A DNA stretch of 64,000 nucleotides. Origin: Azolla caroliniana. Taxonomy: Eukaryota; Plantae; Polypodiophyta. Both the position numbers and the translations under genes were made by a program. The notes beneath the pieces are model-generated. The model did no database searches. It was not told the DNA's origin and was given only the letters and a program-made list of their open reading frames with translations. The stretch lies in assembly GCA_043228905.1 (NCBI GenBank), contig JBHGNT010000004.1, positions 19,034,001 through 19,098,000 on the forward strand, read 5' to 3'. Positions 2,719-54,559 of this stretch are shown here, piece by piece. Position 1 is the stretch's first letter; the number at the start of each line of letters is the position of its first letter.

Positions 2719-2995
2719 TATTGAGGATCAAGCACAATATAATAATAGGCACATTGGGATTTGAACCTTGTACCTTTACTTTATATACTATAAAACTTAT
2801 AATAATGATATGTATCCTTTTTTATTATACGATAAACATACTAGCATGTAATGCATAGAATGTCATGCATACATGAAGCCATGTGGCGAGCATGTGGTAA
2901 ACATGCTCGCATGCTTCATTTTATATAAAGGGGGCTTACCCCCACCATTCAATTAGACTTATTTTTAGAAGATATCTCATATCTAGATCTCAACA
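2719..2995 (+). repeat. 5' LTR of Copia B
   Basis: TATTGAGGATCAAGCAC...AGATCTCAACA. Matches 8718-8982; first TG mutated to TA. TATA box TATATAAAGGGG near 2922. Confidence 0.93.
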
Positions 2996-3008
2996 TGGTA
3001 TCAGAGCC
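2996..3008 (+). promoter_or_regulatory. Primer-binding site (tRNA-iMet)
   Basis: TGGTATCAGAGCC directly after the LTR. Confidence 0.93.
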
Positions 3009-3240
3009 ATAATCAACCGTTTATCTTTGCCAAAGATTCTCCCATAATTTCTCTATTACTTCTCCACAAACTCAACTATCAATATCAATATCTCAACAAT
3101 AATCGATTTCTTCTACGATTATCGCAACGACATATCGAAAGGCCGTCAAGCATCAAGCTATCACGAACACGCAAGCTCTTCAACAACAACGGTTTTTGGT
3201 AAACACTTTTAATTAAGATCCTTACGTACTTGCATTCAAT

Positions 3241-4489
3241 ATGTCTGTTCAAGTAGCGAAACTTGAAAAATTAACTAAAGATAATTATGCATCATGGAAG
3301 TATAAAGTCATGTTGTTTTTAAAAGCAGAAGAATTGTGGCAAATAGTTGTTAATGATAAACCTAGTCCTACAATAAAAGAAGAAGATAGAAAGGGAAAGA
3401 AAAAGAATCTGGTGTTATTGAGGATGCAAAGGATTGGAATAAAAAGGATGTACAACCCATGGTAATACTTTCAAACACTCTTTCATCATCTTTGATTCCA
3501 CATATAAAGCATTGTAATACTACTAAGGAAATGTGGAATACATTAGAAAAGATTTTTTCGAATGTATCTTCGGCTAGAAAAATGCAACTAAAAGTGCAAT
3601 TACAAAATGTTAAAATGGATAGAAACATGACAATCATGGATTATGTTGGAAAAATTAGGAAAATTGTGGATGATTTGGCATTGATAGATTGTATTGTGGA
3701 TGATGATGATATTGTGCATGTGTGTTTGAAAGGATTGCCATCAAACTTTAATATATTTAAAACATCCATTTATGTTGCTGGAATACCATCATTTGATGAG
3801 TTGATTCCTAAACTGCTACAAGAAGAACAAATTACAAGTTCATCAAAGAGTGGTAAGGATTGGAGTGAAGAACCATCTTTCTATGCTAATAGAGGAAAAT
3901 CTCTAAGAGGAAGAGGAGGAAGGTGGCAACAACGAGGAAGAAATCAAGCTCATGGGAGATGGCAAAATGAACAAATTTACAATGAAAATAAACAAGAAGG
4001 TGAGAACTACAATAACAATAATAATAGAGGGAGAGGGAGAATGCAAAGAGGACGAAAATTTCTGAATAATCAAGGTCATTTTCATGGTTATTCAGCCTCA
4101 ACTATTGAGTGTTTTTATTGTAATAAGATTGGGCATTATGTGCAAGACTGTTGGATTCGACAAAATGATATAAAGAATGGAAAATATAGTGAAAGTAATT
4201 ATGCATCCAATAGTATTACTCAAGTAGATGAACATGATGAGAATACATGTGATAAAAATGCACTTGCAGTTACAATTGGTAAGAATGCAAATAATACTTG
4301 GTATCTTGATTCTAGTTGTTCAAATCACATGACTGGAGATTGTGGTTTGTTTGACGCAACAAAGGGTTTGTCCACTCCAATTGAAATTTGTATGGGTGAT
4401 GATACATGTTATGATGTAAAAACTTGTGGAGATGTTCAATTGCATTTGTCAAATGACATGTCCAAAAAGCTAAAAGATGTGTGGTACAT
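3241..4489 (+). pseudogene. Copia B gag-protease (frameshifted near 3410, interrupted by a solo LTR)
   Basis: LTKDNYASWK gag start, RGG-rich tract, zinc knuckle CFYCNKIGHYVQDC, protease WYLDSSCSNHMTG. Confidence 0.9.
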
Positions 4490-4982
4490 TGTCGTGAAGA
4501 TTTTCGGCAATAGTGTGAAACTTGTGAGGAATATACGAAATCGAGTGTGGCTCTTCTCATGAAATATAAAACAATAATAGTGAAGATACTATTTAAATAA
4601 GTTTAATATCTTGGTACAAACAGATAGAGGTCTTAAAGAGCTTTTGAATGCACTTTACTACGTAGGAAACAGACATCTAAGTGTCAAGTTATGTGGGTAT
4701 GAAGTTTGCAAAGAAGAAGAGAAAAATAAAACAATGTGATATCCCACATAAACAGGACAAATAAGGATCCCACCATATATAACGTAGAGCAAAAGCTGTT
4801 ATATTTGTGTCTATGTGTAGACTATAGAAAGGTTAAGTTGTATGACTTAACGAATGGATGTAGCCAAATGCATATAACTATGTGTTTTGGACGGATCTGA
4901 CGATGGCGACCGACGGGGCCGACGAGACAGGTGACGGAACCAGCGATCGGTGACCGGCATCCGCCATCCGACGACCTCGAGA

Positions 4983-5466
4983 TGTGGACCGGAATGGGCC
5001 AAAACCAAACGGATACAAATAAGACGGTTCACGGTGCATGGTGTTTTAAAGATATTTGGTCCAAAAGCCTAATAGTAGTTTGTGCTTTAAAAGGGCTATA
5101 AGACTTGAACCTTGCACCTCCAAGATGAAAGGCAATAGACTTACCACTAGACTATGTCATTTCCTTAGAAATGTTTTCCTATCGTTATACTTTCACATGT
5201 AAATTCTCATATTAGAGCTTGATTTGTGGACCGGAATGGGCCAAAACCAAACGGATACAAATAAGACGGTTCACGGTGCATGGTGTTTTAAAGATATTTG
5301 GTCCAAAAGCCTAATAGTAGTTTGTGCTTTAAAAGGGCTATAAGACTTGAACCTTGCACCTCCAAGATGAAAGGCAATAGACTTACCACTAGACTATGTC
5401 ATTTCCTTAGAAATGTTTTCCTATCGTTATACTTTCACATGTAAATTCTCATATTAGAGCTTGATT
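4983..5466. repeat. 242-bp tandem duplication inside the solo LTR
   Basis: 4983-5224 and 5225-5466 appear identical (TGTGGACCGGAATGGG...GAGCTTGATT). Confidence 0.93.
5101..5154 (-). promoter_or_regulatory. tRNA-like Pol III A/B-box module in LTR (second copy at 5343-5396)
   Basis: Minus strand TAGTCTAGTGGTAAG...GAGGTGCAAGGTTCAAGTCT, A-to-B spacing 43 nt. Confidence 0.7.
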
Positions 5467-5863
5467 GAGTGACATGTGATACATGAGCGCCAAATGGCAA
5501 ACATGCATCACATGCATTACATGCATGTCTTGTACCCTCACATGCATCATATGCATGGGAGCATCTATAAAAGGGTGGATGAAAAAGATCAAAGGGGGTG
5601 ATGTATTAATCAAGAAATTAAAAGTAAGAAACTCGTTATCCAATTGATGTATCAATCTTGTTCTTGAAATCTAAAGTCAAGAGTTCAATCTTAATCTCTC
5701 TCAATCTAAAGGCAATCGTTCTATCTTATCTCTCACTCTCTCTCTTTCAATCTATCTTAATTCCTTTCTCGCTAAAGCTTGTGCAAACTTCGAATCCTTC
5801 CAATCCAGAACCCCGACGGTTCCGCCTCACAATCCGCGCGTAGTGATAGATATCTTCACGACA

Positions 5864-8723
5864 ATGTACCTGGTGTTAAAAAGAATTTAATTTCTATTGG
5901 TCAACTAGTTGAGAAAGATATGGATGTATTGTTTTTGGATGTACAATAACAAGTTCAAACAATTGAGAAGTGCTTGTAACCGGAAGAAAAGTAGGATGAA
6001 TGTTCATATTGAATGACATAGAAAAGAAATGCATGATTGCAAATGAAAAAACTGAGTTTGAGTTGTGGAATAAAAGATTAGGACATGTGAGTGCAAAAAG
6101 ATTGCTAAATATGAGTAATAATGATTTGGTTCATGGATTGCCAAAGTTTAATAGAGATTGTGTTCTACCTCTTTGTGACCCGTGTTGTAAAGCAAAGTTC
6201 ACAAGGACGGTAATGTCGATGAGGAATCCAACTTTCAAGCACCCATTTGAGTTGGTTCATACGGATGTTTGGGGTCCTTCACAAGTAGCAAGCATTGGAG
6301 GATCAAGGTATTTTGTAACATTCATTGATGATTATTCTAGAATGGTGTGGATATACTTTGTAAAAAAGAAAAATGACATTTTTACAAAGTTCATTGAATT
6401 CAAGCAAATGGTTGAAAATCAATGTAATAGAAAAATAAAAATGCTTCGAAGTGATGGAGGAATTGAGTATATGTTAAATGAATTTGATAAGTTCTTAATA
6501 GAAAATGGTATTATAAGGCAAGTCACACCTAGATACACTCCTCAAATTAATGGAGTTGTAGAAAGGAAAAATAGACATATACTAGAGACAACTAGAGCTA
6601 TGCTATTTGAAGTAAATTTGTCAAAAAGGTTTTGGGTTGATGCTTGTCACTATGGAGTGACTTTGATAAATAGAATGCCAACAGCCATAATTGGTAACAA
6701 TACTCCTTATGAATTGTTTTATAATAAAAAGCCTTGAGATGATACATTAAAAGTTTTTGGATGTATTTGCTATGTATATGTTCCTAGTCAAGTAAGGAAG
6801 AAGCTTGATGAAAAGGCTATAAAGTGTATTTTCCTAGGTATTGATGTCATAAAAAATGGATATAGATGTTTTAATATAGATTATGAGAAGTTTTACATCT
6901 CAAAGAGTGTAAAATTTGATGAAATGCAAAATAGGAAAACATTAGAATGTGATGTGCAAATGCCTTTGTCAAGTAAGCTAAGTAGCGTGGATCACAAAAA
7001 TGATGTTGATACCGAGAATGAGAAAATAGATGATTACATTGAAGAAGTCGACATAATTTGTGGGACAACTTCACAATTAAGAAGATCTAGTAGAATAAGA
7101 AAACCTATTCAGAGGTTAATATATGATAGTTGCATTGCACAACATTATCTGTTTATGGCAAAAGTTAATGATTTTATTGAGCCTAATTGTTTTGGAGATG
7201 CATATAAGAATAGAGAATGGAAGTGTGCTATGCAAGAAGAAATTGATGCATTATACAAGAATGATACATGGGAGCTAGTGCCTAGACTAAATGATAAAAA
7301 GGTAATTGGTTGTAAGTGGGTATATAAGTCTAAGTTCAATTCTAATGGTACTTTGAATAGATGTAAAGCAAGATTAGTGGCTAAAGGTTATTCTCAAACA
7401 TATGGTCTAGATTATGAGGAAACATTTTCACCAATAGTTAAAATGGCCTCTATTAGGGTTGTTATCTCTTTGGCAACATCTCTAAAATGGAATTTATATC
7501 AGATGGATGTAAAAAATGCTTTTTTGAATGGTATTTTGAAGGAAGAAGTGTTCATGGAACAACCACATGGTTTTAAGGATAATGTTAACCCTAATTATAT
7601 GTGCAAATTGAAGAGGGGCTTATATGGACTAAAACAATCACCAAGAATATGGTTTGAAAGGTTGGGAAACTACTTGAAAGTATGAACTTCAAGCAAAGTT
7701 GTGTAGACGCATCAGTTTTTAGGAATGATGGTACAAATGGTAAAATCATTATTGTTTTATACGTAGATGATCTAATTATAACAGGTGATAATGATGAACT
7801 TGTACAAAAAATAAAACATAATATGTCAAATGAGTTTGAGATGAAGGATTTAGGAGAGCTTAAGTACTTCTTGGGCATTGAAATGATTAAATGTATTAAT
7901 GGTTGGATGCTTTCTCAGAAAAATTATATGGTTGATATGCTAAAAGAATTTAGTAGGTATGATTGTAAGCCAATGCAAACACCAATGCAAGAAAGAATGA
8001 CGTTAGATGCTACTAAAAATGATGCTCTTACAAATGTCAAGATGTATCAACAAATAGTTGGAAAGCTTTTCTACTTGACAATAACAAGACTAGATATTGC
8101 ATTTTCAGTTGGTATTTTCAGTTGATATATACAAGAGCCTATGAAAGCGCACATGACGATAGTATTTAAAAAATTCTAAGATACATAAAAGGAACATTAG
8201 AATATGGTCTTTTGTATTCTAATGATAAGGTGTCTCCTAGTTCTTTTGTGACGCAGATTGGGCTGGAGATAAAGAGGCAAGAAGAAGTACAAGTGGATAT
8301 TGTTGTTCACTTGGTAGTGGAGTTGTGTCATGGTTGTCAAAGAAACAACCAACTGTTGCATTGAGCACCACAGAAGCAGAGTATAGAGTTGCAACCCAAG
8401 CTACATGTGAAGCTACATGGTTAGAGATGTTATTAAAGGATCTTGGAGTCAAAATACAAAGACCATTAGTTATCTATTGTGATAACATAAGTGCAATCTT
8501 GTTAGCAAAGAATCCTATTTTTCATGCTCATACAAAACATATTGAGGTTCATTATCATTTCGTTCGTGAAAAGATTGTCGAAGGCATCATTGATTTGAGA
8601 CATATCAAAACAGAGGATCAAGTTGCTGATATCTTCACCAAGCCATTACCAAAAGAGAAGTTTTTCAAGTTTAGAAGAAAACTTGGTCTTTATGATCTCA
8701 ATGTGCTTGAAAGGGAGTGTTGA
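5864..8723 (+). pseudogene. Copia B pol: GAG-pre-integrase, INT, RT, RNase H (disrupted)
   Basis: [65 protein letters not shown]. Several stops and frameshifts. Confidence 0.95.
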
Positions 8724-8982
8724 GGATCAAGCACGATATAATAATAGGCACATTGGAATTTGAACCTTGTACGTTTACTTTATATACTATAGAACTTATA
8801 ATAATGATATGTATCATTTATTATTATACGATAAACATACTACCATGTAATGCATAGAATGTCATGCATACATGAAGCCATGTTGTGAACATGCTCGCAT
8901 GCTTCATTTTATATAAAGGGGGCTTACCCCCACCGTTCAATTGACTTATTTTTAGAATATATCTCATATCTAGATCTCAACA
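8718..8982 (+). repeat. 3' LTR of Copia B
   Basis: TGTTGAGGATC...TCTCAACA, preceded by the PPT. Confidence 0.93.
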
Positions 8983-9961
8983 AGCCGAGGACAAGCTAGA
9001 GTCAACCAAACTTGGGATAGGAAGAGCTAAGAAAGGCAAAACTAGCAGTGGAGTCAAGAAGGATAGAACCGACCTAAAGATGAAGGTTAGGACCAGGACA
9101 TGGTCAGATATGGTCAAGGGCCTGAAGGAGGACAAATTGGAGACAATTAATTCGGACAAGAGCAAGAATGAATCGGAGACAGCCAATTCGTTCGAAGAGG
9201 ATGATTTGGAAGAGCCAAATCCCATGATGGCCACGTGGACAAGGAGGCAGACGAAACCAACGCCACAAGTGGAAGGGTGCCAATGCTGCGACAACGAGGG
9301 AGCTGAGAAGGGCCTTAGCAGCACAAAAGTTGACCGTAGGGATCGAGGAGCGCAAAACTGGAGGGGTCAAGGAGCGTTGGACCAGAGGGGTCGTAAAACG
9401 TGGAACCAGACTAGACGAGGGGCACAAGTAAGGCGTGAAGACACCAATAGAAGCCGGAAGCCAGAATCGGCAAATGTTGACACAAGGAGCAAACCTCAAG
9501 TTGAGGTCGAGGGGGAGTGTTGAGTGAGCAAGCTCAACTTGGGCCGGATCGGATGGAGACCGATCGGCTAGGCCCGAATCGGCTGAATAAGCTGAAAGCC
9601 AAATCAGTTGCAAGGCCAAATCCTATGGCCGAGTCAGATGGAATCCGATAGGCCATTAGGGGCCTATATTCCTATTATAGTAAATAGGAATATTATAAGC
9701 AGAGTTAGTGTCAGGCTCATCTATAATCATTAAAGTACTAATAGTATTTGTGTCGGCCCACTCGTCAGGGCTTGTATAAAAAGTGCTCTGTGAGCATATT
9801 GTATGTATTGAGTCTTTTTTAATAGAATTGTTTTTCGCATGTTTGCTCACTCAATCTATCTCTCTCTCTCTTACATTCTCTACGATTACCTAATGTTGCA
9901 TTCTGGATAACCGACTGTGTACTCGGTGTTTCGCATAAGCTTCCGCACGTATTCTTTTATA
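8983..9961 (+). mobile_element. Copia A 3' portion: pol C-terminal extension, PPT (9509-9517) and 3' LTR (9518 to about 9961)
   Basis: Frame resumes from the RNase H ORF and ends VEGEC-stop over GAGGGGGAG|TGTTGAG. LTR has a TATA (TATAAA near 9775). Right end inferred (TTTTATA for TTTTACA). Confidence 0.8.
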
Positions 9962-10794
9962 GAGATACAAGGAATGCTCTCCAAGAGCTACAATCACATG
10001 CGTAGATACTTATCCTTAGGTTAAATTATGTCAATGATTAAAGTTATAAGTAATGAGAGTTTTATGATATGAAGAGGGGTTTAAGCTCAATTAGCTAAAG
10101 TTTACACGAGATTTTAAGAAGAAGCTTAAAGACTTATTAAAGTGTCTTTTATAGCATTTATGATGCCCTCAAATCTTTTCACTTTGTGCCACAACTCTCT
10201 CTATTCTTATGTCCCTTGCCTTCGCACAACACTTGCTTATCTCTTTTTTACCAACATTTAGGTTTGCAAAACCTGATAGTACCCTAGAGTTTAGTACTTC
10301 AATATCAAGGATAAATAATTCGCATCAATTCTAGAATTTTATTAAGTGATAGTATCAGTACATCAAGGATTGTTGGAAGTAGCTTTACAAGTGAGTTACC
10401 AACTTATATACGTAGTAGGAGTAGTTGGTTTCTTGGATTTGTTTAGTAGTCTCTAAAAATGTTGGGATGGGATGAAACCACTTTAATATACATGTCATAG
10501 GGCAATAATTAAAGCATGTATTGCTCCTTCTTCACTATCACACGATTAAATAATTAAGTCACCTAAGCACCGAACTAAGATTGAAGATCATTAATGATCG
10601 GTGTAATTAACTATAACTAAATTTGAAGCGATCGATCGGTAGCGATCACGCGCTGGATGCGGATGCGAGCTAGACGATGATCAAGGGATGATGACGACAA
10701 ACGATGTCTTGGGTATGTATATATGTATGTATGTATGTATGTATGTACATATGTGTGTAAACAATGACCATAGGTATGGTATTGGTGATGATGG

Positions 10795-11592
10795 TCATGA
10801 GGTACCTATGCTTAGCATGGTTTTGAACTCATGTATGTCTACCATGCCATTGCCATCACCATCGACTCGACCAATCAGGTGTCGACACGTGTCCACGGCA
10901 TGGTTGGAGCTTGGTAGTAGGTCAAGGTCTTGAAGCACTATGGCCAGTTCCCATGCGCTGATGAACCCATCCCCATCCCGATCATACACCCTGAATGCTT
11001 CCATCACATCCTCCTCTTCCTCCTCTTCTAGGGTTAGGGTTTGTGGTCGATCCTGCGCTTTAGCCCTGGTTAGGGTTTCTCCTCCCTTGTTAAGTTCTCC
11101 TTCCTCTACTACTTCTTCGCGGAAGAGGGAATGATAGAAAGCTTTGAATTGAGCGAGGTCGAGATCGGTAGCTCCTGCAGAATTAGGTCTGATGGATCGA
11201 ATCAAAGAGGTCAAGCGATCATCAGACGGGAGATCGGGAATGGTGAGCTTTTGAAGAAGACATTGCAACTCATCAACACTGACACGGCCATCTCTGTTCC
11301 GATCGAGGAGGCCGAAGAGACTGGTGAGCAAAACGCTATCAGAGGAATCAAGCGCTAAGCTTTCATGGAGTTCTTGTGCGTTACAGGTAGAAGAAAGTGA
11401 CGATGAAGAAGAAGAAGAAGGAGAAGAAGAAGGAGAAGGAGAAGGAGATGAAGGAGAAGGAGAAGAAGGTCGATGAGGATTACCATACCATATTGTCTCC
11501 ATCAAGATGCAGATATTAATATTCTCTGATTCTTCTTCTTGTCCGTTGCAACGAAATGATGGTGGAGAAGGTGCGGTGATGGAGTATTCCAT
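10795..11592 (-). CDS. Calmodulin-like (CML) EF-hand calcium-binding protein, intronless; start may be Met at 11502
   Basis: EF loops DRNRDGRVSVDEL, DRDGDGFISAWEL and DGDGNGMVDIHEF, plus a degenerate second loop. Ser/Pro-rich N-terminus. Confidence 0.9.
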   Translation of the reverse strand: MEYSITAPSPPSFRCNGQEEESENINICILMETIWYGNPHRPSSPSPSSPSPSPSSSPSSSSSSSLSSTCNAQELHESLALDSSDSVLLTSLFGLLDRNRDGRVSVDELQCLLQKLTIPDLPSDDRLTSLIRSIRPNSAGATDLDLAQFKAFYHSLFREEVVEEGELNKGGETLTRAKAQDRPQTLTLEEEEEEDVMEAFRVYDRDGDGFISAWELAIVLQDLDLLPSSNHAVDTCRHLIGRVDGDGNGMVDIHEFKTMLSIGTS

Positions 11593-13429
11593 TTCTGATT
11601 TTCTCTGAAGAGTGAAAAGATTGGATTGGATGGCAAAACGTTAACGCGGCGGTGTATTTTCTTCGTGTTTCAGATTAATACGCAGGGGTATCCTGCAGGT
11701 TTTCAAATCGCGACTGCTTCTGCGAGCGGGGAAGGGAAGGCTGGTTTTTTTTTCAAATGTTTACTGTGGGAAATGGAAGTCTGGTTTTCTATATATGTTT
11801 TTGTGTGGAGCAGAAAAAAACAAAACCGCCATCAGTTTCGATGGGAGTTTCCTTTTTCGTTGTCAAAGAAAAAAAACAAACTCGGATTCGATCCGTCGTG
11901 GGTGAGCTGAGTCAAATAAATGACAAAGTCTTCTTCTTTTTTATAATTATGAAGTGTTGAGTACGGACTCCCGCGAATCGCTCGCATTACATTAATAGTG
12001 TCACCACACGACGACTCCACCATGTTTGATGTTGCCAAGGAATATCACAATACGCTTTGCACACTCATTAATCGTCCCGCTCGCCCGCCCAACACATTCT
12101 CATGATTCAGTGTGTTTTGGATGCTTTCGCGGGACTTGTGCTTTACACTAGAGATATTTTGTCTTGCTCTCTTTATGATTTGTTGTTGCATTCTCCGACC
12201 CTTACGTCGATTAATGCCTCTTATATCCATAAAAAATATAGTTTTTGACTTTGTAGTTTCCCAAAAAAATATTATTTGGAGTGCCGATGGATGAGATATA
12301 TCATGACGGCTACGATATTTATGAACATGTGGCTGATTGTATAGCCACATGTCTATCATACGTGTTTTGTTAAAATCAAATGGATAGTTTAGAGACTAAA
12401 GTAAACAGAATATATATGGGCCTACTATCCTTGACCTTTTCGATGGAAATGGACATTCAAAAGGCATATTTCCTCATTTTCTCCATTGCTTTACTTTTCT
12501 GCATGATTGTTATAGAAAATCAAGGATTTACAAACAATTTTCAAAGGAAAAGTCTAGGGGAATGAGCCATGTAACTTCTTGGAACATGATTGCACAATTA
12601 TATAAGGCATTCATATACTCTTCTTCTGGAAGTAATGAAGTCGTCACCGTGTTGCCACATTATTCCATTCTACTTCTTTTTGTTGGCAAACATTAAGAAT
12701 GTGAGGCTTTGCATTGTGATAGATATTTTTTTGGTGAAGAATGTTGGGATTTTGTAGGTGATCATTGTATGCAAAAGTTCGTCCACCAATGAGTTAATAT
12801 TGTTTTCTAGAATGAAATTTTTTAGCAGAAAATTGCTTCTCTTGTGTGTCATATTAATCCTTCCTTTACATTTATGGAGGAAAGTTGCATTTGTCCACTA
12901 ATAAACTCTAGGCCCAAGACAACAAACAATGTTAGCATGAGGTAGTAATACATTGGAACTTACACTTACCCTCCACCTTCATTATGTGGTTTTGAGGTAG
13001 TTTCCATTGCACCCACTAATTACCTTTATACAATGAGCGAAATTGATAAACAATTAATTATAATAAATTATTACTAATTTTCTATTCTAATGCTTAGTGA
13101 ATGTCTTAAGTAAAAACACAAAGCAAAGAGTTATAGCGTGGTACAAAAAATGTTCTAGGATGTAACATGTTTTATAAAGGAAAAGGCTATTTCTTGAGAC
13201 TATAATTTCATTCCATCCAAGTCTCTTGAAAAGGAGCAAGGGGGTTAAGGGTTTGGATGTTGGTGTGCTATGCGGTCTCCATGTAAATGGTATCCTAACC
13301 ATAGCTTCCAAACAGGGCAATTCCCATTCCCTTATCTTATTAATTGCTTTTACACGACAATGATAAAGTGTATAAGACAAATGATAGTCGTATACAATAT
13401 GAGGGCTTGACCAAACCAATTAGATAGAG

Positions 13430-14630: not shown

Positions 14631-14699
14631 GTGTCCATGTTCATCGTCCCCCATGTTCCTAAAAAAATTCAATGGTTGCATGTTGGTAAATGTTAGAAA

Positions 14700-21600: not shown

Positions 21601-22565
21601 TGATTTCTAATTTCTAATTTCTGATTCCCAAATCCCGAATCCCGAATCCCGAATCCCGAATCCCGAATCCTGATTCCCGCTAACCCGCGGGCCGCCTACA
21701 ACCTGCCGCCTTACCGATTTGTCTCGTTTGATTCTTCTTGGAAGCGTAAAGGTAAATTGTTATCCTGAATTCATGTATTTCTAATGTCTATACAATTGTT
21801 AAATCATTCAATGAGCATGAGATCAAACCCTAAAACGAAAATTTGGGAAAAAACCCTCAAAATCTTAACAAAAACCCAAGAACTCATAAAACACTAAATG
21901 AGATTATGGAATTATGGATGTTTGTATGTGCAAATCAGCTTTAATTTCAGGTTATACATACTACAAATGCATGTTTTTCTCAAATAATGGATGCAAGGGA
22001 TAAGAAAACTAGACATGTCGCCCTTCCCCGCCCCTTCACTACCCATTTTTTTGGTTTTTTTAATCGAATAATTGAAAGAGGAAGAGAAACAACAAATTGC
22101 ATGATGCATCTTTTTCTTAGGTTTGTGATTTGTCTTGCATGGGATTGAGAAGGTCTTAATGTGCTGAAAAGTAATACCTCTTGGCCATATAGGATTCGTA
22201 ATAATGTAGAGAATTTAACTAGTTGTTCATGTTTTCATCTAATTGAAATTTGGCCTTTGGAGAGAGATAATCACCATTGAACCTTTTGGCTTTTAGCCAT
22301 AGAAATTTTTGATATTGAAATTTGAAACATAAGATAGAAAGTAACATAGAAAGTGACGTAGAAATGAATTATATTGAGGCAATGTTGCCCGAAATAGAAT
22401 AGAACTTAATAAACTCTGAGAAGGAAAAGCACCTCAAAAGGATTGTAGTTTTATTAAATCAATGTAATTGTAGTTTTCTAATGTTCTTTTATATATTCAT
22501 ATCAACGTGATTGTAGATTTGTTAAGTCACTTCCTAGTTGATTTATAAATTAATGTGATTGTAGT

Positions 22566-24626
22566 ATGGGCAAACAAAAGAGCTTTTTATGGGACCACAT
22601 TACTGTCGTGAAGAGAAACGATAAAGGAATGCATATAAATGAATGCAAACATTGCAAACACGTGTTTGCTGGTGGTCCACACCGAATTAAAGCCCATCTT
22701 TTGGGGCTAAAAGGACAAGGTGTGGATAAATGCCGCAAAGTCACTGGAGCAATAAAAGATGAGATACAAAAATTGGTATCGGATGTGGATGCTCATGAAA
22801 ATATTAATGCTAATGAAAATTCTATTACAGAAAGTGAGAATAATGTCGATGTAAGTACATCTAATGCCAATGTTGTGCCATCTACTTGTGCATCTGTAGT
22901 TGACATGTCATCTTCATCATGTAAGAAGAGGACAATTGAGAATTCTAGTGGATCCCTACAAATCTCTTGGCAAAAAAGTTTGAATAAAAATGTCGATGAA
23001 TCAGTGAGAAGATTCTTTTTTGTAGAGGATATTCCACATCTTAAGGTTGATAGTTCCTTTTTTCATGATATGGTTCAAGCAATTGCAAAGGCTGGTCCGT
23101 CATATAAGCCACCAAGTTCTTTCCAATTGGGAAAGAGGCACTTAGATGAAGAAGTAAAAATTGTTGAAGATAAACTTTCATGCATCAAAGAGAAATGGAA
23201 AATATATGGATGCACTATAGTCAGTGATGGTTGGTCAGATACTAGAAATAGGCCAATAATTAATGTTCTAGCTTCATCAATGTTTGGTTCACTGTTTTTG
23301 AGGTCCGTGGATACAAGTGGAGAATGTAAAACGAGGGAGTATATCTTTAATATTCTAAAAGCTACCATTCTTGAAATTGGCCCAACAAATGTTATGCAAG
23401 TATGCATGGATAATGCATCAAATTGTGTGGCAGCGGGACATATGATAGAGAAAGAGTGGCCCATGATATTTTTTACTCGATGCACATGTCATTGCCTTGA
23501 TTTGTTGTTTGAGGATATAGGAAAATGTGCTTGGGTTAATGATGCTTTGAGATTAGGTATGAAGGTTACTACGTTCATCACAAGAAAGCTATATGTGCTT
23601 GCAATGTTTCGCAAGTTTAGTAAAAAGGAATTGTTGAAGCCTTCTACTACAAGGTTTGCTTATAGTTTCATTGTGCTATCAAATTTGTTAGATGATAGAG
23701 TGTATAGTGGTTTAAGAAGAATGGTAGTTAGCGAAGAATGGTGCCAATGGAAGGGATCTAAAACGCAACAAGCAGAAGAAGTAGTTTCGATAATATTGAA
23801 TGCTTCCTTTTGGTCAAATGTAAAGATGATAGTGGAAATATGCTCACCAATTTTAAAAGTGTTGCGATTGGCGGATAGAGAAGGTGCAACAACGGGGTTG
23901 ATATATGAATGTACACGACGAATGGTAGAAGAAATAAATAAAATGCAAGGAATCAATAACATGTTGCTTGATGAAATTAGAGGATTATGCATGGATAGAT
24001 GCAAAATGTTACATTCACCATTACATGCAATTGGATATCTCTTACATCCAATTTGGTGGGAAAATTCTCAAGTTTTTGATAATGTGGTGAATGCTAGTTG
24101 GATAGACACCATTATGCGATATGCAAATGGTGACATTAAGATGCAAGGTAATTTATTAGATGAGTATCATGCTTATAAAACTAAAGAGAAGGGTATTTTT
24201 CAACTTCCACCTTCAAATGATCCTACTAGAATGAAAGAAGGTGTTAAGTGGTGGGAATTATTTGGAGGAGAAACCCCAAATTTAAGTAAACTTGTGATAC
24301 GAGTGCTTTCTCAAGGTACTTGTGCATCTCCATGTGAGAGAAATTGGAGTACCTTTTCATTGATACACACTAAGAGGAGAAATAGGTTGAGTCATGATCA
24401 TATAGAGAAGCTGGTATACTTGCATACAAACCATCGTCTATTAAAGAAAGTCAAAGAAAGAGATGCATGCCGTATAGAAGTGACTTTGGATATGATTAAT
24501 AAAGAAGAAGATGATGATAGGCTTTTGGTATTGCAAAGACAACATGCAACTATGGTTAATGAGGATTTCGAAGAAGATGATGATGATGGGCAAGATGTTA
24601 ACATTGACAATGCACCTCAAGAGTAG
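22566..24626 (+). CDS. hAT transposase, 686 aa (BED finger, DUF659, C-terminal dimerisation domain)
   Basis: LWDH..CKHC..RIKAHL BED finger. Catalytic SDGWSD, MDNAS and SPCERNWS. Also CTCHCLDL, TRFA and RRNRL. Confidence 0.93.
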   Translation: MGKQKSFLWDHITVVKRNDKGMHINECKHCKHVFAGGPHRIKAHLLGLKGQGVDKCRKVTGAIKDEIQKLVSDVDAHENINANENSITESENNVDVSTSNANVVPSTCASVVDMSSSSCKKRTIENSSGSLQISWQKSLNKNVDESVRRFFFVEDIPHLKVDSSFFHDMVQAIAKAGPSYKPPSSFQLGKRHLDEEVKIVEDKLSCIKEKWKIYGCTIVSDGWSDTRNRPIINVLASSMFGSLFLRSVDTSGECKTREYIFNILKATILEIGPTNVMQVCMDNASNCVAAGHMIEKEWPMIFFTRCTCHCLDLLFEDIGKCAWVNDALRLGMKVTTFITRKLYVLAMFRKFSKKELLKPSTTRFAYSFIVLSNLLDDRVYSGLRRMVVSEEWCQWKGSKTQQAEEVVSIILNASFWSNVKMIVEICSPILKVLRLADREGATTGLIYECTRRMVEEINKMQGINNMLLDEIRGLCMDRCKMLHSPLHAIGYLLHPIWWENSQVFDNVVNASWIDTIMRYANGDIKMQGNLLDEYHAYKTKEKGIFQLPPSNDPTRMKEGVKWWELFGGETPNLSKLVIRVLSQGTCASPCERNWSTFSLIHTKRRNRLSHDHIEKLVYLHTNHRLLKKVKERDACRIEVTLDMINKEEDDDRLLVLQRQHATMVNEDFEEDDDDGQDVNIDNAPQE

Positions 24627-24886
24627 AGAGATGAGATTAACTATTAGTACTATGAATTTAGAGCTACTTTCTAGGTTAATGTTCATGTTTGAAGTTTGAA
24701 CTTTGGATAAATTTTGGTTCATGTTTAGAATTTTGGATGCTATTTTGTTAGTTTTCAATGAATTTATGGTCTTGATTTTTGTTTATAAAAATCTTGATTA
24801 TTTTTTATTTTTCATATTTTAAATTTTTTTTAGAGTAATAAAAATAAAAATATAGACGAATGGATTCCAATCATACTTGGAGCCAT

Positions 24887-24957
24887 TTCACGTATGAGTA
24901 TGATACGAATATTCACGTATGAGTATGATACGAATATTCACGTATGAGTATGACACG
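24887..24957 (+). repeat. Three 25-bp subterminal tandem repeats of the inner hAT
   Basis: TTCACGTATGAGTATGATACGAATA about three times. Confidence 0.9.
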
Positions 24958-25271
24958 TTTGAGACGTATGGCTAGAACTATGCTAACAAGTTGTAATAGG
25001 GGTTTTTTTTACATGCAATTAATATAATTGTGTGATTTTACCAAAAAAAAAAAAGAGGGAAAATTTAGGATTTAAAAAAAAGTTATAAACCTATAAACCA
25101 AACCTTTAAACCGATAAGCTGCTAAACCGCTAAACTGTGAAACCCAAAAATCGAACCGAATAGTATCCTTTGAAACCAAACCAAACTATTTATTTAACTT
25201 TTAACCGATAAACCATTAAGCCACGACTTAACTGTTTGGTTCGGTTTGAGCCGAAACCGGGCCCGTTGCTA

Positions 25272-26243
25272 CACGGGGGGTAAAGTGAACTCTACTATAA
25301 TGATTTTATGTGGCAAAGCAACTAGGAGAGATGAAAGTTGTATTGGTCTCGAGGTCGTACCTAAGAGGAGGTAGATTATTAATGTTTAGGCCGTTTGTGA
25401 AAAGCCACCTTAGCACAGTACTATACCAGGAGCTAGTATCTCTAGACTTGTAGAGTGATTGAGATTGTCACAATTCTAACTCTTGACATGACCATATTAT
25501 AAACAAGTGTTATGTGTTAACTAACATATCTAGTATACAATCATGTGTGTAATTGCTCCTTGTAGTTTTTAGCTAGCATCATGTGCATAGTTGCTCCCTT
25601 GTATTACTTACACTTGGCACATGCATGCGTACCTACATGTTCTATTGTATCACATGTGTGCAATAGCTATGTATGCCGCTTAGTATAAATAATTGAGTTC
25701 ACCTTGAAGGAATTCAAAGTGAACAACACTAGTTATAGAGTCTTTCAGTTAATACCACTTATCCATTTGGTTATCTTCTTTCTAGTCTCTTGAGCTTATG
25801 ATCTATCCGTGACAGAGATGCCCCGAAAGCTTGACGAGATATGCTATCTTGTGATTGTCTTTTGCATCTTATTAATAAAAACTACTAATTCAAAAAAGGG
25901 CTTCAACTAGCACAAGGGATAAAGTGACCTCTACTATAATGATTTTATGTGGCAAAGCAACCATGAGAGATGAAAGTTGTATTGGTCTCATGGTCGTACA
26001 TAAGAGGAGGTATATTATAATTAATGTTTAGGTCGTTTGTTGAAAGCCGCCTTACCATAGTACTATACTAGGAGCTAGTATCTTTGGACTCTTAGAGTGA
26101 TTGAGATGCCTCAAAAGCTTGACGAGATATCCTATCTTGTGATTGGCTTTTACATCCTATCAATAAAAACTACTAGTTGAAAAAAGTGCATCAACTAGCA
26201 TAGGGGGTAAAATGAACTCTACTATAATGATTTTATGTGGCAA
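25272..26243 (-). repeat. Tandemly repeated (about 290-bp unit) LINE relic
   Basis: GAAAGTTGTATTGGTCTC...AAGCTTGACGAGATAT...GATTTTATGTGGCAA recurs at about 15055, 25330 and 25970. Confidence 0.8.
25466..25814. mobile_element. Solo LTR, 349 bp
   Basis: TGTCAC...GTGACA termini, perfect 5-bp TSD GAGAT. Confidence 0.9.
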
Positions 26244-26321
26244 TGTTAATTTACTTCGGATTTGTTATGATAACATCATGACCAATGGTCTCTCTAATTG
26301 TCAACACACGAAAGGTGGTAG

Positions 26322-26511
26322 AGTTAGAGCTTAATCCTAATGTAAGCAAAAGATAAGGAAATATAAGATAGGAAAATAAAGAAGAGAGAGAAAGAAGGGT
26401 GTCGATCCACCCGACCACCCCCGAGCGAAGGGATTGAGATGGGCTCAAGCCTCGATCGGCGTCCCATACCACCGTCATGGCATCGAGTCATACCTGGTAT
26501 TGCACACTCTG
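26322..26511 (-). mobile_element. 3' half of a split chromovirus solo LTR (other half at about 32488-32795)
   Basis: Reverse-complement match to 40020-40206. Outer flanks GGTAG (26317-21) and GGTAT (32796-800) form a near-perfect TSD. Confidence 0.75.
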
Positions 26512-27674
26512 TGTTGGAGTCTGAGACATGGTAAAACATTTGCATTTCGGGAAATGCTCGAAAGACATAGGAAAGCATTTGCATTCTATCCAAATGAAAT
26601 CGGATGCGCATATCCAAGGATAATAGAACCGATGGTGATATTCACAATACCACATGTGTCGTGGAACCTGAAACAGATACCAGTCCCAAGAACACACATT
26701 CTAAAATTAATCAATCTCTTGAAAGAGAAGGTCGAGATGGGAATTCTAGAACCGTCGAATGCTCCTTACTCAAATAGGTGGTTCACGGTACCAAAGAAGA
26801 ATGGAACCTTAAGGTTCATACAAGGTCTTCAATCAGTGAATAAAGTTACGATTCGCAATGCCAGAATTGGTCCAAGTATCGATGAGTTTGCGGAAGCATT
26901 TGCGGGAAGGTCCATTTATTCTATTGGTGATCTCTACTCAAGCTACAATCAATTTCAACTAGCAGTCGATAACAGAGACATCATGACAACAATGAGGACC
27001 TCGATTGGATTGGTACAGATGTGCACCCTACCGCAACGTGCAACCAACTTTGTAGCACACATGGTGAATGCCATGAACAAAGTACTAAGAGACTGTATCC
27101 CAAATATTACGATGCCTATGAAGATTTGTAGAAGATTTGTTTCAAACCATATTGAAGATTGTGAGATAGTGCTACAAAGACTAGAAGGAGCAGGGCTCAC
27201 ATTCTCCGGAGAAAAGTCGGCATTCGGCCAACGTGAGGTCCTAGTAGTGGGACATCTTGGCGGACCATATGAACGAAAATCCTCTCATGAGAAGGTGAAT
27301 GCTATTCAAGAGATGCGAGAAGAATGTATATCCCAGACAGAGGTGCGAAGATTCTTGGGAATGTGTACCTTTTATCATATCTGGATTCCGCACTACACTC
27401 ATGTCATCGAGCCATTATATGGATTGCTGAAAAAAAGGAAGAAGTTTGAATGGCAAGAGGAGCATACAAATGCGATTCGAAGATTGAAGAAACTACTTCT
27501 TGAAACTCCAACACTAAGAAAGGCTGACTAAACCGAAGGAAAACCAATTTATGTGATTGTGGATACGAGCCCAACTGGAATTGGGTGGGTCATCAACCAA
27601 GAAGGAGAAGATAGCACATGGTATGCCATCCGATTTGGAGCAAAGGTCCTAAGAGAACAACAACGAGGATACGT

Positions 27675-28653
27675 TGTCGCAAAGTTTCATGTGCGTGTGT
27701 TGCTCGAATCGGGACCACCGGGGCCTTGAACCGGGGAGACAAAAGTAGTGAGGAAGTGGGAGATCAAGACAAAGACATGGGCAATTTATACACAAGTTAG
27801 CTTTAATACCATGATTTCGGTGGGTTTTTTTTACATAGAATCCATTTCATGATTAATAAAAAGGGTTTTTGTTTTTCTTTAGAATTGCTAGGCTTGACAC
27901 CATGATTTTAGTGGTTTTTACAACGATCAGTTATCAAATAATCAAAGGCTAAAATAATCTAGCAAAGGCGAGTCTAGTGGGCTCCGAGCTTGACTACTTC
28001 CAATGGCTATGTTGCCTCGATTCGGAGTAGCCCTCGTGCCACTACAACCTCCCTTACACCACTGGCCACCGAGTTTACTACCACCGAGATGCCGAAGAAG
28101 TTGATGTATAAGGAATCAAAGCCCTAAAATCTATAGAGTAAGAAGTATAATAGAGGCAAAACTCTCAAACCCTAAAATCCTAACTCCTCTAGTATGTTGA
28201 GGAGAAAAGAAGAAAAGTAGAAAGAAGAAGCTCTCAAACCCTAACCCTAGAAGGAAAAGAAGAAGGAGAAAGGGATAAGGAGAAAGGAATGCTACAAAAC
28301 CCTAACCCTAGAAGAAGAGGAGAAGATGAAACCCTAGTGGTACACCCCTACGGCAAAATGGGCGACCCCCAAATAAGCCCTATCCCTCCTCTATAGAGGA
28401 AAGAGGAGCTTATTTTAACATTACATGCTCTTCTTCTTCTTTTTACCTTTATCACAAAAATGGAAGGGGAACAAAATATTCCTTGATTTGTAGGAAAAGA
28501 GACTCAAACTCTACACCTCTCTAGATATACTTATAAGTTTTAACCACTACGCTACTACAAGTTACTTATTGTTATTTATTTATTTGTACATTATTTCATG
28601 AGATGTGAGTGGAACCTCGGTTTTTCTCACGCCACACACGCCACACCACAACA
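27675..28653 (-). mobile_element. Solo LTR (979 bp) inserted in the Gypsy RNase H
   Basis: TG...CA ends, perfect 4-bp TSD ACGT. Removal restores QRGYVQVKREL. Carries the reverse complement of the GC-rich LTR-end motif. Confidence 0.9.
28500..28554 (-). promoter_or_regulatory. tRNA-like A/B-box module in LTR
   Basis: TAGCGTAGTGGTTAA...GAGGTGTAGAGTTTGAGTCT, spacing 44 nt. Confidence 0.6.
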
Positions 28654-30645
28654 ACGTCCAAGTCAAGCGGGAACTCTAGGGTATCGTGTCTACAGTGAAG
28701 GTAGACAAGGACTACATGATCGAGTTGGAAGTGATAATGGAGACAGATTGTCTCCCAATCCTTAGGATGATCTCAGGATGTGCAACACCAGATTTGGTTA
28801 TGCTAAGGTGGATCGCTTATATCAAGTCTTTGAACCCAGAGATCCACCACATCGTAGGAAAGAACAACGCCATGGCTGATATGCTGTCAAGAGCAAGATT
28901 CGAGAATGAAAGTGACATGGTTTCATAGGATGAAGACGTCACCCTCGACTTCTTCAAGACGGCCCCGATTGTCAACGGAAGACAAAGGCACGCCAACCCT
29001 CCACGCTTTCAACGAGAACGAGTATGAAGGAGAGGGTTACTGATCGGCAGGTTCTTGAGAACAATGACGACGGATGCCTCGTGGTCGAAGGAGGAGGCTC
29101 CACGAATCCGGAAGAAAGCTTATCAGTACTTTCTGAAGTGAGGATTTCATTGGCACGGGAATGCCACGTTGAGTAGTGGTGAAGAGAGAGGACCAAGCAA
29201 TGCTGATGTCTGAATTCCACGAGAGTCCTTGGGCAAGTCATAGAGGAACATGGGAGACGTTCGAAAAGCTGAAGGAGAAGTACTGGTGGCTGAGCATGTA
29301 CAAAGATGTACTTCATTTTGTGTCCACATGCGAAAACTGCCAAGTACATTTGAACATACGTCACCGTGATGAGTTGCGACCGACATACCCACTCACCATA
29401 CATTTCAAATTGATGGTGGATATGGTCTCGATGCCAATGGGAGTGGGACAGATGAAGTACTTGGTACTCGCAACAGAAGACCTGACAAATCATGTGGAAG
29501 AATGAGCCTTGGCAAATAAGACGATGTCAGCCATTTGCAAATTTCTACTCGATACAGATGTGTGGGAAAGATAGTGGCCGACCAAGGGGAGCTGGATGCA
29601 CACAAAGCAATGGAGCTCTTCGAGCAACTAGGCATGAAGCTCTCCCTCACGACTGCCTACAATCCGGAATCGAATGGGAAGATCGAGCGAGGGCATGGAC
29701 CGATAGTCAAAGCCATCGAATGAGCATGTGACTGTTGAGTTGGGAATTGGCCGCGACTATTGCTCTATGCCTTGTGGCCCGATAGAACTACGCACAGTTT
29801 TGTGACAGGGTATATGCCGACAGAGCTTATGTATGGACGGAAGCTGGTAATGCCCATCGAAAGGGCGATCGCCTCATGGGTAGCGATACCATGGGAGAAC
29901 AATATGAGCCGAGAAGAATTATTGGCAGCACAGATAAGGCAGCTCGAAAGAAGGCCCAAAGATCTAGAAAATGCACGAAAGATAATGGAGGTAGCCCGAG
30001 TGAAGAACAAGATTCGGTTCGATAAGACGCATCGACTACGTCCCAAGGAGATCGAAGAAGGAGATTGGGTATTGGTCTACGACAACAGCCTTGACAACCA
30101 ACACAAGACGACAAGAAAGTTCGCAAGAAGATGGTTTGGACCGTATGTGGTGACGAGTGCCAATGACAACGCCACCTACCACCCATCGCAGGGAAAAGAG
30201 TAAAGATCTTCAAGAAAAGACAAGACGAGGGTCGTAACCTCGATCACCTCAATGATGAAGATAATAGGGCGGAACCCGCAAACATGAGCGAGGGTAACGA
30301 GGATGTGGAGGAATTTGATTGATCACCATAGCCGAAATCTCACACTCTCTTCTTAGCACATAACATAGGACGTGCGGTTTGGTGGGGGTGGATGTAGTGA
30401 AAATTTCGGCAACAACATGAAAATCACGCAGAAGGGACAAAATTGAGAAGGTGCAATGTGCGCGCGTTTGGAAGGGGTGATGGTCACACATGTTCTCTAG
30501 CATGTTGTAAATAAGACTGAAATGAGAATCGTAAAAGGAAGGCTAGATGTAAAGTTAAACATATGCACATTTCTCAAACACTTGTAAATATAAAAATAAG
30601 ACTAAAGCCTATTAACATTTGAGTGCATACAGAGGGGTGCAAGCA

Positions 30646-30700
30646 AGGTTTAAACCTTACACCTCCAAGATAGGAGACAAATGACTTATCACTAAAGCTA
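30646..30700 (-). promoter_or_regulatory. tRNA-like A/B-box module in the Gypsy 3' LTR
   Basis: TAGCTTTAGTGATAAG...GAGGTGTAAGGTTTAAACCT, spacing 44 nt. Homologous to 5101-5154. Confidence 0.6.
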
Positions 30701-31137
30701 CTATTGAGTGCTTTAGATTTTATATATATTTTTCTCATATTGAGTATTCTATAAGAATATAAACGTATAAAACTGTGTGCACAAAACCATGGTTTAAGCC
30801 TATGGTTTTGTGCATGTCATAAGCAAACCCATGTGCACAAAATCATGGTTTTAGCCCATGGTTTGTGCATGTTACAAGCATGGAGAGACCTATAAAAGCC
30901 TCTAGTTGGGCTTGTGTAAAGGGCTATGTATTGAATCAAGAACTTAAGAATAATAAAATCATAGTAATGTCATTGGTCTTGTCTCTCAAAACTTGAAGTC
31001 AAGGGTTCAACGTCAAAATTGGAATCTATCTATCTTAAATACTTTCTCTCTTATGCTAGTAAAAAAGTTGAATCCTTCCGGTTCAGGACCCCGGCGGTCC
31101 CGCTTCATTTCATGAACGCTCGAAGATTTCTTCGACA

Positions 31138-32487
31138 ATGTTTTCAGCCTCGATTGAACTTCCTTAGACTCATCTTTGACGAGCTGGAGGTTGAGGCCAT
31201 TTTGATGTGACTCAACTAGTTGGAAGGTTTTGTCTAGAGGTGGCTACTATGGATGCAATCGGCTAGTTCACCCAAATTTGATCTAGCCAAATTGGGCACA
31301 AACTTGGTCGATTGTTCGGTCAATTTTGCTCGAAGTGGCTACGACCAAGTGTGGAGCAGAGTCGACTGGTCTCTCCATTGTGATGCCTAGCCGATTTGAG
31401 CATCGTGTTGATTGGATTGTCGATTTTGATTTGATCGCCGATCCTGCTTGAAGTGGCTACAACAACTAAAGGGACAGAATCAACTAATCTTCCCGAATGT
31501 TGCTTGGTTGAGTTAAGCACAAATTAGACTGATCAAAGTGCCAATCACAGTGTTTGTGTGTGCCATTTTTAGTGTCAATCTTGCTCCGAGTGGCTACAAT
31601 AGAGGGAGTCTCTTCTAGCCAGATAGAGCCGATTTGTCTTCGTGAGTCTCTTCTAGCCAGATGGAGCACAAATGATGTCAGATTTGAAATCTATTCTACT
31701 TCGATTTGTTACAACAATTGAGTGGGCAACGCCGACTAGCCCGTCTGAATGTTGCTTAACCTGATAAGGCACGAACAATACTTGTTTGAAGTAGGTTCCA
31801 CTCCAAGTCGTTGCGATCACAGGAACCATGTGTGGCCAACTGGCCTACTTGGGAGGTGATCTAGCTTAGTGGAGTGCAGACCAACTAGTGTCTTTCTTCT
31901 CTTCTCTTGATGGTTGTTGAACTTCGTGCCTTCAAGATGACAAGGGCAAGGATACTGTTAAGGATAGATGACAACCAATAGCGAGTTGAAGGACCTCTGC
32001 TATGATACCAGATGTTGGATTCTGAGACCGTCAATGCGGAAACATGAACAACATCTATGCTAAGAAGATTAACAAGTTAAAGCAAGATCAAGAAGGCAGA
32101 GAGAGAGAGAGAGAGAGAGGCACACAATGGAGCTCAGTTGGTATGTTGCCCAATGGAGACCAGGTGGTCATGGGTTCAACCCCTACATTCCACAGTGGCA
32201 TCTAGTGAATTAAGAGATATATAAGAAGTATATGAGGAAGTTGGGTTTCAAACCCAAAATACAGTGCTTGTAATGCTAACAACTTACCACTAGGGTAAGG
32301 TAATTACAATAAGTAAAAAAGAGAGAGACACATAATGTAACAGTCTTATTCCAAAAATAGTTACAATACAAGAATGACACTATCAACCCCATGAGCTAGG
32401 TTACAAAGCCAATTATATACTAATTGGGCCAGGGAAACTGCCCTTTGACATAATTACAAAATTCTCCTAAACCTAGTTTGTCCAAAG
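31138..32487 (-). mobile_element. 5' part of a minus-strand LTR element with Met PBS (31999-32010) and LTR at about 32013-32487
   Basis: Minus strand TGGTATCATAGC next to an LTR beginning (plus) TGTTGGATTCTGAGAC. The matching stub TGTTGGAGTCTGAGAC at 26512 marks the other LTR. Confidence 0.7.
32130..32297. promoter_or_regulatory. Two convergent tRNA-like A/B-box modules in one LTR (32130-32183 +, 32244-32297 -)
   Basis: GAGCTCAGTTGGTA...GTGGTCATGGGTTCAACCCC and TACCCTAGTGGTAAG...GGTTTGAAACC, each with 43-nt spacing. Confidence 0.7.
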
Positions 32488-54271: not shown

Positions 54272-54559
54272 TTGACTCGCTCATTTTAGTGGCTTAAGTT
54301 TTAACTAATTCATTCCATTTTAGTTCCCTGGGTGTCCATGAGACCACCGGTCTCGTCGATCCCTGTCCATGGACTCCCGGACATTTGCGTGAACCATCTC
54401 TCCATTTCCCGACCTGAGACCACTATGCAGATATATACCATATCATAGTCAAAGGAAAACCTAGTAGTTTCAAAAGTCGGGACCAATAATTTGTATTGCC
54501 CCCATGATTTGTGTCATCTCGTAAAAAAATGTGGTTTTGCACAACTATGCATAATAAGC

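What the first reader, a model, noticed from the sequence alone, without database searches (positions are those of the whole stretch)
2757..32297. tRNA-like Pol III A/B-box cassette recurs in LTRs of unrelated Copia and Gypsy elements
Seen: eight copies in six LTRs, all with 43-44 nt from A-box start to B-box start, versus 44 nt in the real tRNA-Lys of this window. Copia B LTRs: 2757-2810 and about 8756-8809 (minus; B GGTTCAAATCC, A eroded to TATCATTATTATAAG). Gypsy solo LTR: 5101-5154 and 5343-5396 (TAGTCTAGTGGTAAG..GGTTCAAGTCT). Solo LTR 28500-28554 (TAGCGTAGTGG..AGTTTGAGTCT). Gypsy 3' LTR 30646-30700. Two more at 32130-32297. Copia and Gypsy copies share AGGTRYAAGGTTYAA. Boxes and spacing persist while acceptor and anticodon stems do not pair. 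Where a TATA is visible, the module lies upstream of it. Known: small-RNA-derived LTR segments occur in non-autonomous TRIMs (5S in Cassandra; tRNA-like in Helenus, from memory), and TFIIIC-bound tDNAs act as chromatin barriers in yeast and animals. Inference: coding elements of both superfamilies here may use a shared TFIIIC/Pol III decoy as an insulator, anti-silencing device or antisense RNA source.
Basis: partly seen in the sequence, partly recalled or inferred. Interest (0 to 1): 0.82.

Follow-up and report, generated by a model that had tools for sequence, protein, structure and literature searches.

The report
tRNA promoter inside retrotransposon ends
Two distant groups of protein-coding jumping genes in this plant genome carry, in their end repeats, a backward-facing remnant of a tRNA gene that keeps the promoter letters but not the tRNA fold, and it likely docks the host factor TFIIIC to keep the element's own promoter open.

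Summary
The modules are real, but two lie in a SINE, not an LTR, and the Copia copy has lost its A box. A strict A/B pattern has 5,444 genome-wide matches versus 1 for the reversed control. Among 35 full-length elements found by structure, both LTRs carry the module in 5 of 5 Tcn1-like chromoviruses and 3 of 6 Phygy-like Gypsy elements, and in 0 of 18 Copia. It lies in U3, antisense, 110-250 bp from the TATA box. Across 11 diverged spacer types the box positions and AGGT at tRNA 44-47 stay fixed while stems decay; yeast and human TFIIIC read these positions. Best reading: a TFIIIC/TFIIIB docking site kept by selection during transposition, likely shielding the LTR promoter. No binding or expression data were available. 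One Tcn1 family's module is 86-89% identical to the SINE head; the direction of transfer is open. Closest known: Helenus, which is non-coding. The scan noted LTR-borne tRNA-like promoters before in fungal genomes; my look-ups showed none for these modules. New variant of a known kind.

The parts
4490..5863 (+). Solo LTR of a coding Phygy-like Gypsy family, with a 242-bp internal duplication (4973-5456); 4-bp TSD, likely a CpG-decayed NCGN site
   Evidence: 985 candidates genome-wide; relatives flank gag-pol
5101..5154 (-). tRNA-derived A/B-box module, antisense in U3 (duplicated copy)
   Evidence: 0+0 mismatches, spacing 43; family-wide in the 29 copies aligned
5343..5396 (-). tRNA-derived A/B-box module, antisense in U3, about 168 bp from the TATA box; a T4 run follows about 12 nt after the B box
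2719..2995 (+). Copia B 5' LTR, followed by a PBS
   Evidence: small family, 28 candidates
2757..2810 (-). Eroded module: B box and AGGT kept, A box lost; about 110 bp from the TATA box
8718..8982 (+). Copia B 3' LTR (92-93% identical to the 5' LTR)
8756..8809 (-). Eroded module in the Copia B 3' LTR
27675..28653 (-). Solo LTR of a Phygy-derived family whose copies often have only about 215 bp between PBS and PPT; TSD ACGT; inserted inverted in a Phygy-like pol
   Evidence: 176 candidates
28500..28554 (-). Module in SENSE orientation to its element; B box C56T in 21 of 28 distinct copies
30393..31137 (+). 3' LTR of the Phygy-like element whose broken pol spans about 26380-30392
30646..30700 (-). 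Degenerate antisense module, homologous to 5101/5343
   Evidence: (D12, 78%)
32120..32320 (+). SINE-like repeat in (GA)n: tRNA-like head (A box at 32130, +), second inverted tRNA-like module (A box at 32297, -), A-rich tail; not an LTR
   Evidence: head 86-89% identical to the LTR module of one Tcn1-like family
49646..49718 (-). Real tRNA-Lys(CTT) gene, used as reference

Best explanation
Coding Tcn1-like and Phygy-like Gypsy retrotransposons carry in U3 an antisense tRNA-derived A/B-box module, head-to-head with their TATA box, that likely binds TFIIIC (and likely loads TFIIIB) and so likely keeps the LTR's Pol II promoter open or buffered from silencing. Shown: position, orientation, presence in both LTRs of young elements with long intact ORFs, fixed 43-44 spacing, retention of the box positions and loss of the RNA fold. 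Inferred: selection acts on the replicating lineage (U3 is recopied from the 3' LTR each cycle) while inserted copies decay neutrally; TFIIIC occupancy; any effect on the Pol II promoter. A short antisense Pol III transcript would be a by-product. The Copia B remnant would be a TFIIIC-only site, possibly picked up with a U3 block from a Phygy-like LTR.
For: Both LTRs positive in 5 of 5 Tcn1-like and 3 of 6 Phygy-like elements of 35 found by structure; two of them have 1,203- and 1,204-aa pol ORFs with RT, RNase H and integrase. Tcn1-like 3' LTRs located by protein: 16 of 19 positive; 13 of 15 after dropping loci fetched by the pattern; proteins 51-100% identical; B box 21-44 nt from the LTR end. 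Across 11 spacer types T8, A14, T16, G53, T55, C56, A58 and C61 are invariant, and AGGT at 44-47 is 91-100% conserved although it was not in the filter; most spacer columns are 36-64%. [quoted passage not shown] C56G lowers binding 370-fold (PMC11811891 passages). CpG decay in copies is symmetric (1,813 CA versus 1,607 TG), yet at family level the tolerated CA is in 6 of 11 types and TG in 0 of 11. A box to TATA distance 110-252 bp. T4-T8 runs 23-29 nt after the B box in three Phygy-like elements.
Against: No binding, chromatin or expression data. Many young elements lack it: 0 of 18 Copia, 0 of 5 other non-chromovirus Gypsy, 3 of 6 Phygy-like; Selaginella SM-Tcn1 shows none by eye. So it is dispensable. 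Within families the key positions are not significantly more conserved than the spacer (p 0.56, 0.19, 0.15; 0.012 only in the sense family). That family has the damaging C56T in 21 of 28 copies. Box conservation is partly imposed by the mismatch filter, and families share ancestry. In young Tcn1-like copies a spacer CpG is kept almost as well as the B-box CpG (7 of 9 versus 9 of 9). Copia-Phygy likeness outside the module is weak (best z 2.0-4.3, below the shuffle maximum for 3 of 4 queries). The C1 regions (600 of 874 kb) were chosen for many pattern hits.
Confidence: 0.5

Rival explanations
1. The selected product is the antisense Pol III RNA: about 100 nt inside U3 for Phygy-like families, or running from the 3' LTR back over the PPT and integrase end for Tcn1-like families, limiting copy number or feeding small-RNA pathways.
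For: A box and exact spacing are kept though binding alone needs only the B box. T-run terminators in Phygy-like LTRs. The SINE head matches one Tcn1-like module from 13-14 nt upstream of the A box, where Pol III would start. In four Tcn1-like elements the first antisense T4 lies 518-1,358 nt into the internal region.
Against: RNA fold is not conserved. The T4-free stretch is not general: other Tcn1-like copies have T4 at 14-91 nt. No benefit to the element is shown.
Confidence: 0.2
2. Neutral relics of old SINE or tRNA insertions that hitchhike in U3, or whose motifs were re-used as ordinary Pol II enhancer sites.
For: Symmetric decay after insertion; no within-family excess conservation; absence from many active families; a closely related SINE exists; partial deletions seen.
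Against: The promoter positions survive while spacer, stems and flanks turn over across families down to 51% protein identity; spacing stays 42-44; one family carries two antisense modules and one sense module.
Confidence: 0.2
3. The module is a landing pad or nuclear-positioning signal that attracts integration near Pol III sites, as for yeast Ty3 (lead from note e1-10420559).
For: Elements are densely nested in the regions read.
Against: No insertions just upstream of the A box in the aligned families, although those loci were picked by matching across or next to that region, so the test is weak.
Confidence: 0.1

Closest known systems
Helenus / TRIMp3 (Kojima 2024, PMC10886601; parts 1-4 of 6 and passages read)
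   Same: tRNA-derived sequence inside LTRs, conserved around boxes A and B, not a functional tRNA; proposed origin by SINE insertion.
   Different: Helenus is non-coding, 311-1,263 bp, and the module is proposed as the promoter of the element's RNA; the paper expects autonomous partners to use Pol II and not to share such LTRs. Here coding elements of about 5.7-7.9 kb carry it antisense, upstream of a TATA box. The paper does note that 'not a few' Repbase LTRs hold tRNA-like parts but follows up only TRIMs.
Cassandra and Ajax TRIMs (as described in PMC10886601)
   Same: Pol III internal promoter kept in LTRs.
   Different: 5S-derived (type 1), non-coding, and for Cassandra the source of the replicated RNA.
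tDNA insulators and extra-TFIIIC (ETC) sites (PMC11811891, PMC11724288 passages)
   Same: B-box-centred TFIIIC sites acting outside tRNA synthesis; the Copia B remnant resembles a B-box-only site.
   Different: Described in yeast and animals as host sites; here carried by retrotransposon LTRs in a plant, occupancy untested.
Twin SINE and cqgypsy_1 of Culex (PMC3286476 passages)
   Same: Dimeric tRNA-related SINE; tRNA copies at a Gypsy LTR.
   Different: cqgypsy_1 has intact tRNAs at the PBS of one element; the SINE here has convergent halves and sits in (GA)n.
Tcn1 and Phygy lineages (Neumann 2019, PMC6317226; passages and Additional file 5 read)
   Same: Chromodomain, self-priming, 5-bp TSD (Tcn1); no chromodomain, 4-bp NCGN TSD (Phygy).
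   Different: No LTR tRNA module is mentioned in the passages and table seen.

Membership tests
Helenus (TRIMp3) | tRNA-derived sequence with boxes A and B in the LTR | tested here: met
Helenus (TRIMp3) | Short non-coding TRIM (311-1,263 bp reported) | tested here: not met
   Carriers of about 5.7-7.9 kb with gag-pol, some with long intact ORFs. The 28500 family has a short internal part but LTRs of about 980 bp.
Helenus (TRIMp3) | Module placed to transcribe the element's own RNA (implied by the paper's model) | tested here: not met
   Antisense in Tcn1-like, Phygy-like coding and Copia B LTRs; sense only in the 28500 family
Type 2 Pol III promoter / TFIIIC site | A box, B box and tRNA-like spacing | tested here: met
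   not met for Copia B, which lacks the A box
Type 2 Pol III promoter / TFIIIC site | TFIIIC or Pol III occupancy, transcription | not testable with these tools
   only contigs available, no raw RNA reads
tRNA gene | Cloverleaf and covariance-model score | tested here: not met
Tcn1 chromovirus | Chromodomain after integrase | tested here: met
   PF00385 at E 3e-14 in one element
Tcn1 chromovirus | Self-priming site and 5-bp TSD | tested here: met
   PBS-complementary sequence just after the TATA box (by eye); TSDs; R region and PBS resemble SM-Tcn1 by eye
Tcn1 chromovirus | Phylogenetic placement with reference elements | not testable with these tools
   reference protein file too large to read
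Phygy | 4-bp NCGN TSD, no chromodomain | tested here: met
   6 of 6 elements with NCGN; window TSD ACGT; no chromodomain in the one pol scanned
Phygy | tRNA-Trp PBS | tested here: inconclusive
   A shared PBS is seen; its match to tRNA-Trp is recalled, no such tRNA was fetched
SINE2 (32120-32320) | tRNA-like head with A/B boxes, A-rich tail, dispersed high copy, no LTR structure | tested here: met
SINE2 (32120-32320) | TSD and partner LINE | tested here: inconclusive
   flanks are (GA)n, so a TSD cannot be read; no LINE search made

The most novel reading that the evidence does not exclude
Autonomous plant retrotransposons of unrelated lineages converged on, and swapped, a portable Pol III promoter used as a built-in chromatin barrier for the LTR. 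This scatters thousands of TFIIIC sites through heterochromatin, and read-out from one such LTR module gave birth to a high-copy SINE, the reverse of the accepted SINE-to-LTR route.
Probability: 0.3. Interest if true: 0.87.

Novelty: new variant of a known kind. Interest (0 to 1): 0.7.

Why it matters
It would show coding retrotransposons using the host Pol III machinery as a cis-element of their Pol II promoter, a possible anti-silencing route. It would make TFIIIC barrier function in plants testable on thousands of natural sites, with natural controls: families without the module, B-box-only, and C56T. It may also give a traceable birth of a SINE from an LTR.

Tried and rejected
Expression: no RNA holder listed with raw reads; contigs only show that related organisms carry the Tcn1-like LTR region and the SINE head. 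Rfam and ARAGORN gave no proper tRNA call on the modules (ARAGORN made two spurious long-intron calls using SINE heads). A search for Copia-type PPT-LTR junctions followed by an intact B box and partial A box within 12-42 nt gave 9 matches, all Tcn1-type LTRs by sequence; Copia modules deeper in an LTR would be missed. Depletion of antisense T4 in the Tcn1-like 3' region is not general. CpG retention in young copies does not separate box from spacer. The tree test for direction of SINE/LTR transfer was uninformative: the family is the deepest branch and its module only 43-56% like others. The Phygy-like tree needs 2 changes, so one gain with losses or two gains (17 of 23 rows long enough). Literature: 10 searches found no report of antisense A/B modules in coding plant LTRs; subscription papers and Repbase reports are not covered, and Additional files 1 and 3 of PMC6317226 could not be read and may bear on lineage assignment. 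No genome of a relative was available.
Full report
Setting. The window lies in a 523-Mb plant genome. It is likely a moss, inferred from the Tcn1-like and Phygy-like elements, which Neumann et al. place in mosses and club-mosses (PMC6317226 passages).

Observation. A mismatch scan finds perfect A and B boxes 43 nt apart at 5101-5154 and 5343-5396, a perfect A box with a C56T B box at 28500-28554, and near matches at 32130 (+) and 32297 (-). The first two are one module doubled by a 242-bp duplication in a solo LTR, 4490-5863. That LTR family has 985 candidates and flanks gag-pol elsewhere. The Copia B LTRs keep the B box and the AGGT before it, but none of the copies aligned has an intact A box. 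The pair at 32130/32297 is not in an LTR: it is a ~200-bp repeat with two convergent tRNA-like halves and an A-rich tail, inserted in (GA)n, with 2,148 candidates. No module scores as a tRNA.

Chance. A strict pattern has 5,444 matches genome-wide versus 1 reversed. These include some real tRNA genes. Of the 30 first matches fetched, 28 cluster with Tcn1-like or Phygy-like LTR sequences and 2 lie in an unidentified repeat. In 874 kb, spacing 43-44 gives 68 hits versus 4 in reversed sequence.

Who carries it. In those 874 kb (600 kb chosen for dense hits) I kept 35 LTR pairs with TSDs, after dropping a tandem tRNA-Tyr array and poorly bounded pairs. Both LTRs carry the module in 5 of 5 Tcn1-like and 3 of 6 Phygy-like elements, in 0 of 18 Copia, 0 of 5 other non-chromovirus Gypsy and 0 of 1 unclassified. 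Carriers include a young coding element with 99.5% LTR identity and a 1,203-aa pol with chromodomain, and one with a 1,204-aa pol without. Locating Tcn1-like 3' LTRs by protein, 16 of 19 are positive (13 of 15 without pattern-fetched loci), across 51-100% protein identity; 7 further rows had no junction called, 5 of them from a more distant family (28-32% identity). In the Phygy-like group, module-bearing LTRs are more AT-rich (GC 0.34-0.43) and most module-free ones are GC- and CpG-rich (0.44-0.57); the label needs 2 changes on the tree. A targeted search found no Copia junction with an intact module near the LTR end.

Anatomy. The module is in U3, antisense, with its A box 110-252 bp from the TATA box where one was found, so a Pol III and a Pol II promoter would face away from each other. 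Three Phygy-like elements have T runs 23-29 nt after the B box; Tcn1-like LTRs end 21-44 nt from the B box start with no terminator inside the LTR. One Phygy-like LTR has two antisense modules and one sense module. The 28500 family is the exception: short internal part, sense module, C56T in 21 of 28 copies.

Selection. Across 11 spacer types drawn from 30 modules, T8, A14, T16, G53, T55, C56, A58 and C61 are invariant and AGGT at 44-47 is 91-100% conserved, while in-register stems pair at 1-4 of 5 against 5 of 5 in correctly registered real tRNAs. The filter (at most 2-3 box mismatches) inflates box conservation, but not AGGT. [quoted passage not shown] C56G cuts binding 370-fold (PMC11811891 passages). 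After insertion the B-box CpG decays symmetrically (3,631 CG by subtraction, 1,813 CA, 1,607 TG), and within families key positions are not significantly better kept than the spacer in 3 of 4 sets. At family level the tolerated CA appears in 6 of 11 types and TG in none. This fits selection on replicating lineages only; shared ancestry weakens the count.

Links between elements. The module of one Tcn1-like family (1,056 candidates, found with a query ending before the A box) is 86-89% identical to the SINE head, and the match starts at the SINE's 5' end, 13-14 nt upstream of the A box. Either the SINE arose by Pol III read-out from the LTR or the LTR captured the SINE; the tree did not decide. 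Copia B relatives align best to Phygy-like LTRs (z 5.8-9.9 with the module; 2.0-4.3 without), weak support for a U3 transfer between superfamilies.

Mechanism. I commit to a TFIIIC/TFIIIB docking site that keeps the LTR promoter open or buffered from silencing (0.5). Rivals: antisense Pol III RNA (0.2), neutral or re-used relic (0.2), landing pad (0.1). Binding, transcription and chromatin effect are all inferred; no raw RNA reads were available.

Comparison. Helenus shares the tRNA-derived LTR segment but is non-coding and is proposed to use it as its own promoter (PMC10886601, parts 1-4 of 6 and passages). These elements fail two Helenus features, so they are not members; they may work more like mobile tDNA or ETC sites. 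SM-Tcn1 of Selaginella shows no module by eye (PMC2864245 supplement), so the feature may be lineage-limited. Ten literature searches found no description (search listings only except for the six papers cited with passages). Verdict: new variant of a known kind, interest 0.7.

Noticed in passing
window 32120-32320; L092-L120: High-copy SINE-like repeat with two convergent tRNA-like halves that inserts into (GA)n microsatellites, sometimes in tandem; its head is also seen in contigs of related organisms.
   Followed up: partly
L063, L064, L068, L072, L080, L082: Phygy-derived family with ~980-bp LTRs and only about 215 bp between PBS and PPT, carrying a sense module; the nearest thing to Helenus here.
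   Followed up: partly
L161 (minus strand LTR): Phygy-like LTR with two tandem antisense modules and a third, sense module after the TATA region.
   Followed up: partly
L142 and L145, about 1490-1570 on the minus strand: Another repeat with a GC-rich tRNA-like head that appears to keep an acceptor stem; not assigned to an LTR.
   Followed up: no
G000:C1:13340000-13366000 (L220-L222): Tandem array of intron-bearing tRNA-Tyr genes and pseudogenes; similar tRNA-Lys, -Ile and -Gln clusters occur elsewhere.
   Followed up: no
elements e4, e9, e16, e20, e34: Gypsy elements with a tRNA-like 3' end at the PPT position, as in earlier notes on this genome; their LTRs lack the A/B module.
   Followed up: no
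window 2719-8982: Copia B has no matching TSD and its LTRs are 92-93% identical; the Phygy-like solo LTR sits inside its coding region.
   Followed up: partly
window 35401-35981: Tandem array of about 54-bp units.
   Followed up: no
window 51620-54280 (-), 10795-11640 (-), 22554-24626 (+): PPR gene with E/E+ motifs, EF-hand gene and hAT transposase.
   Followed up: no
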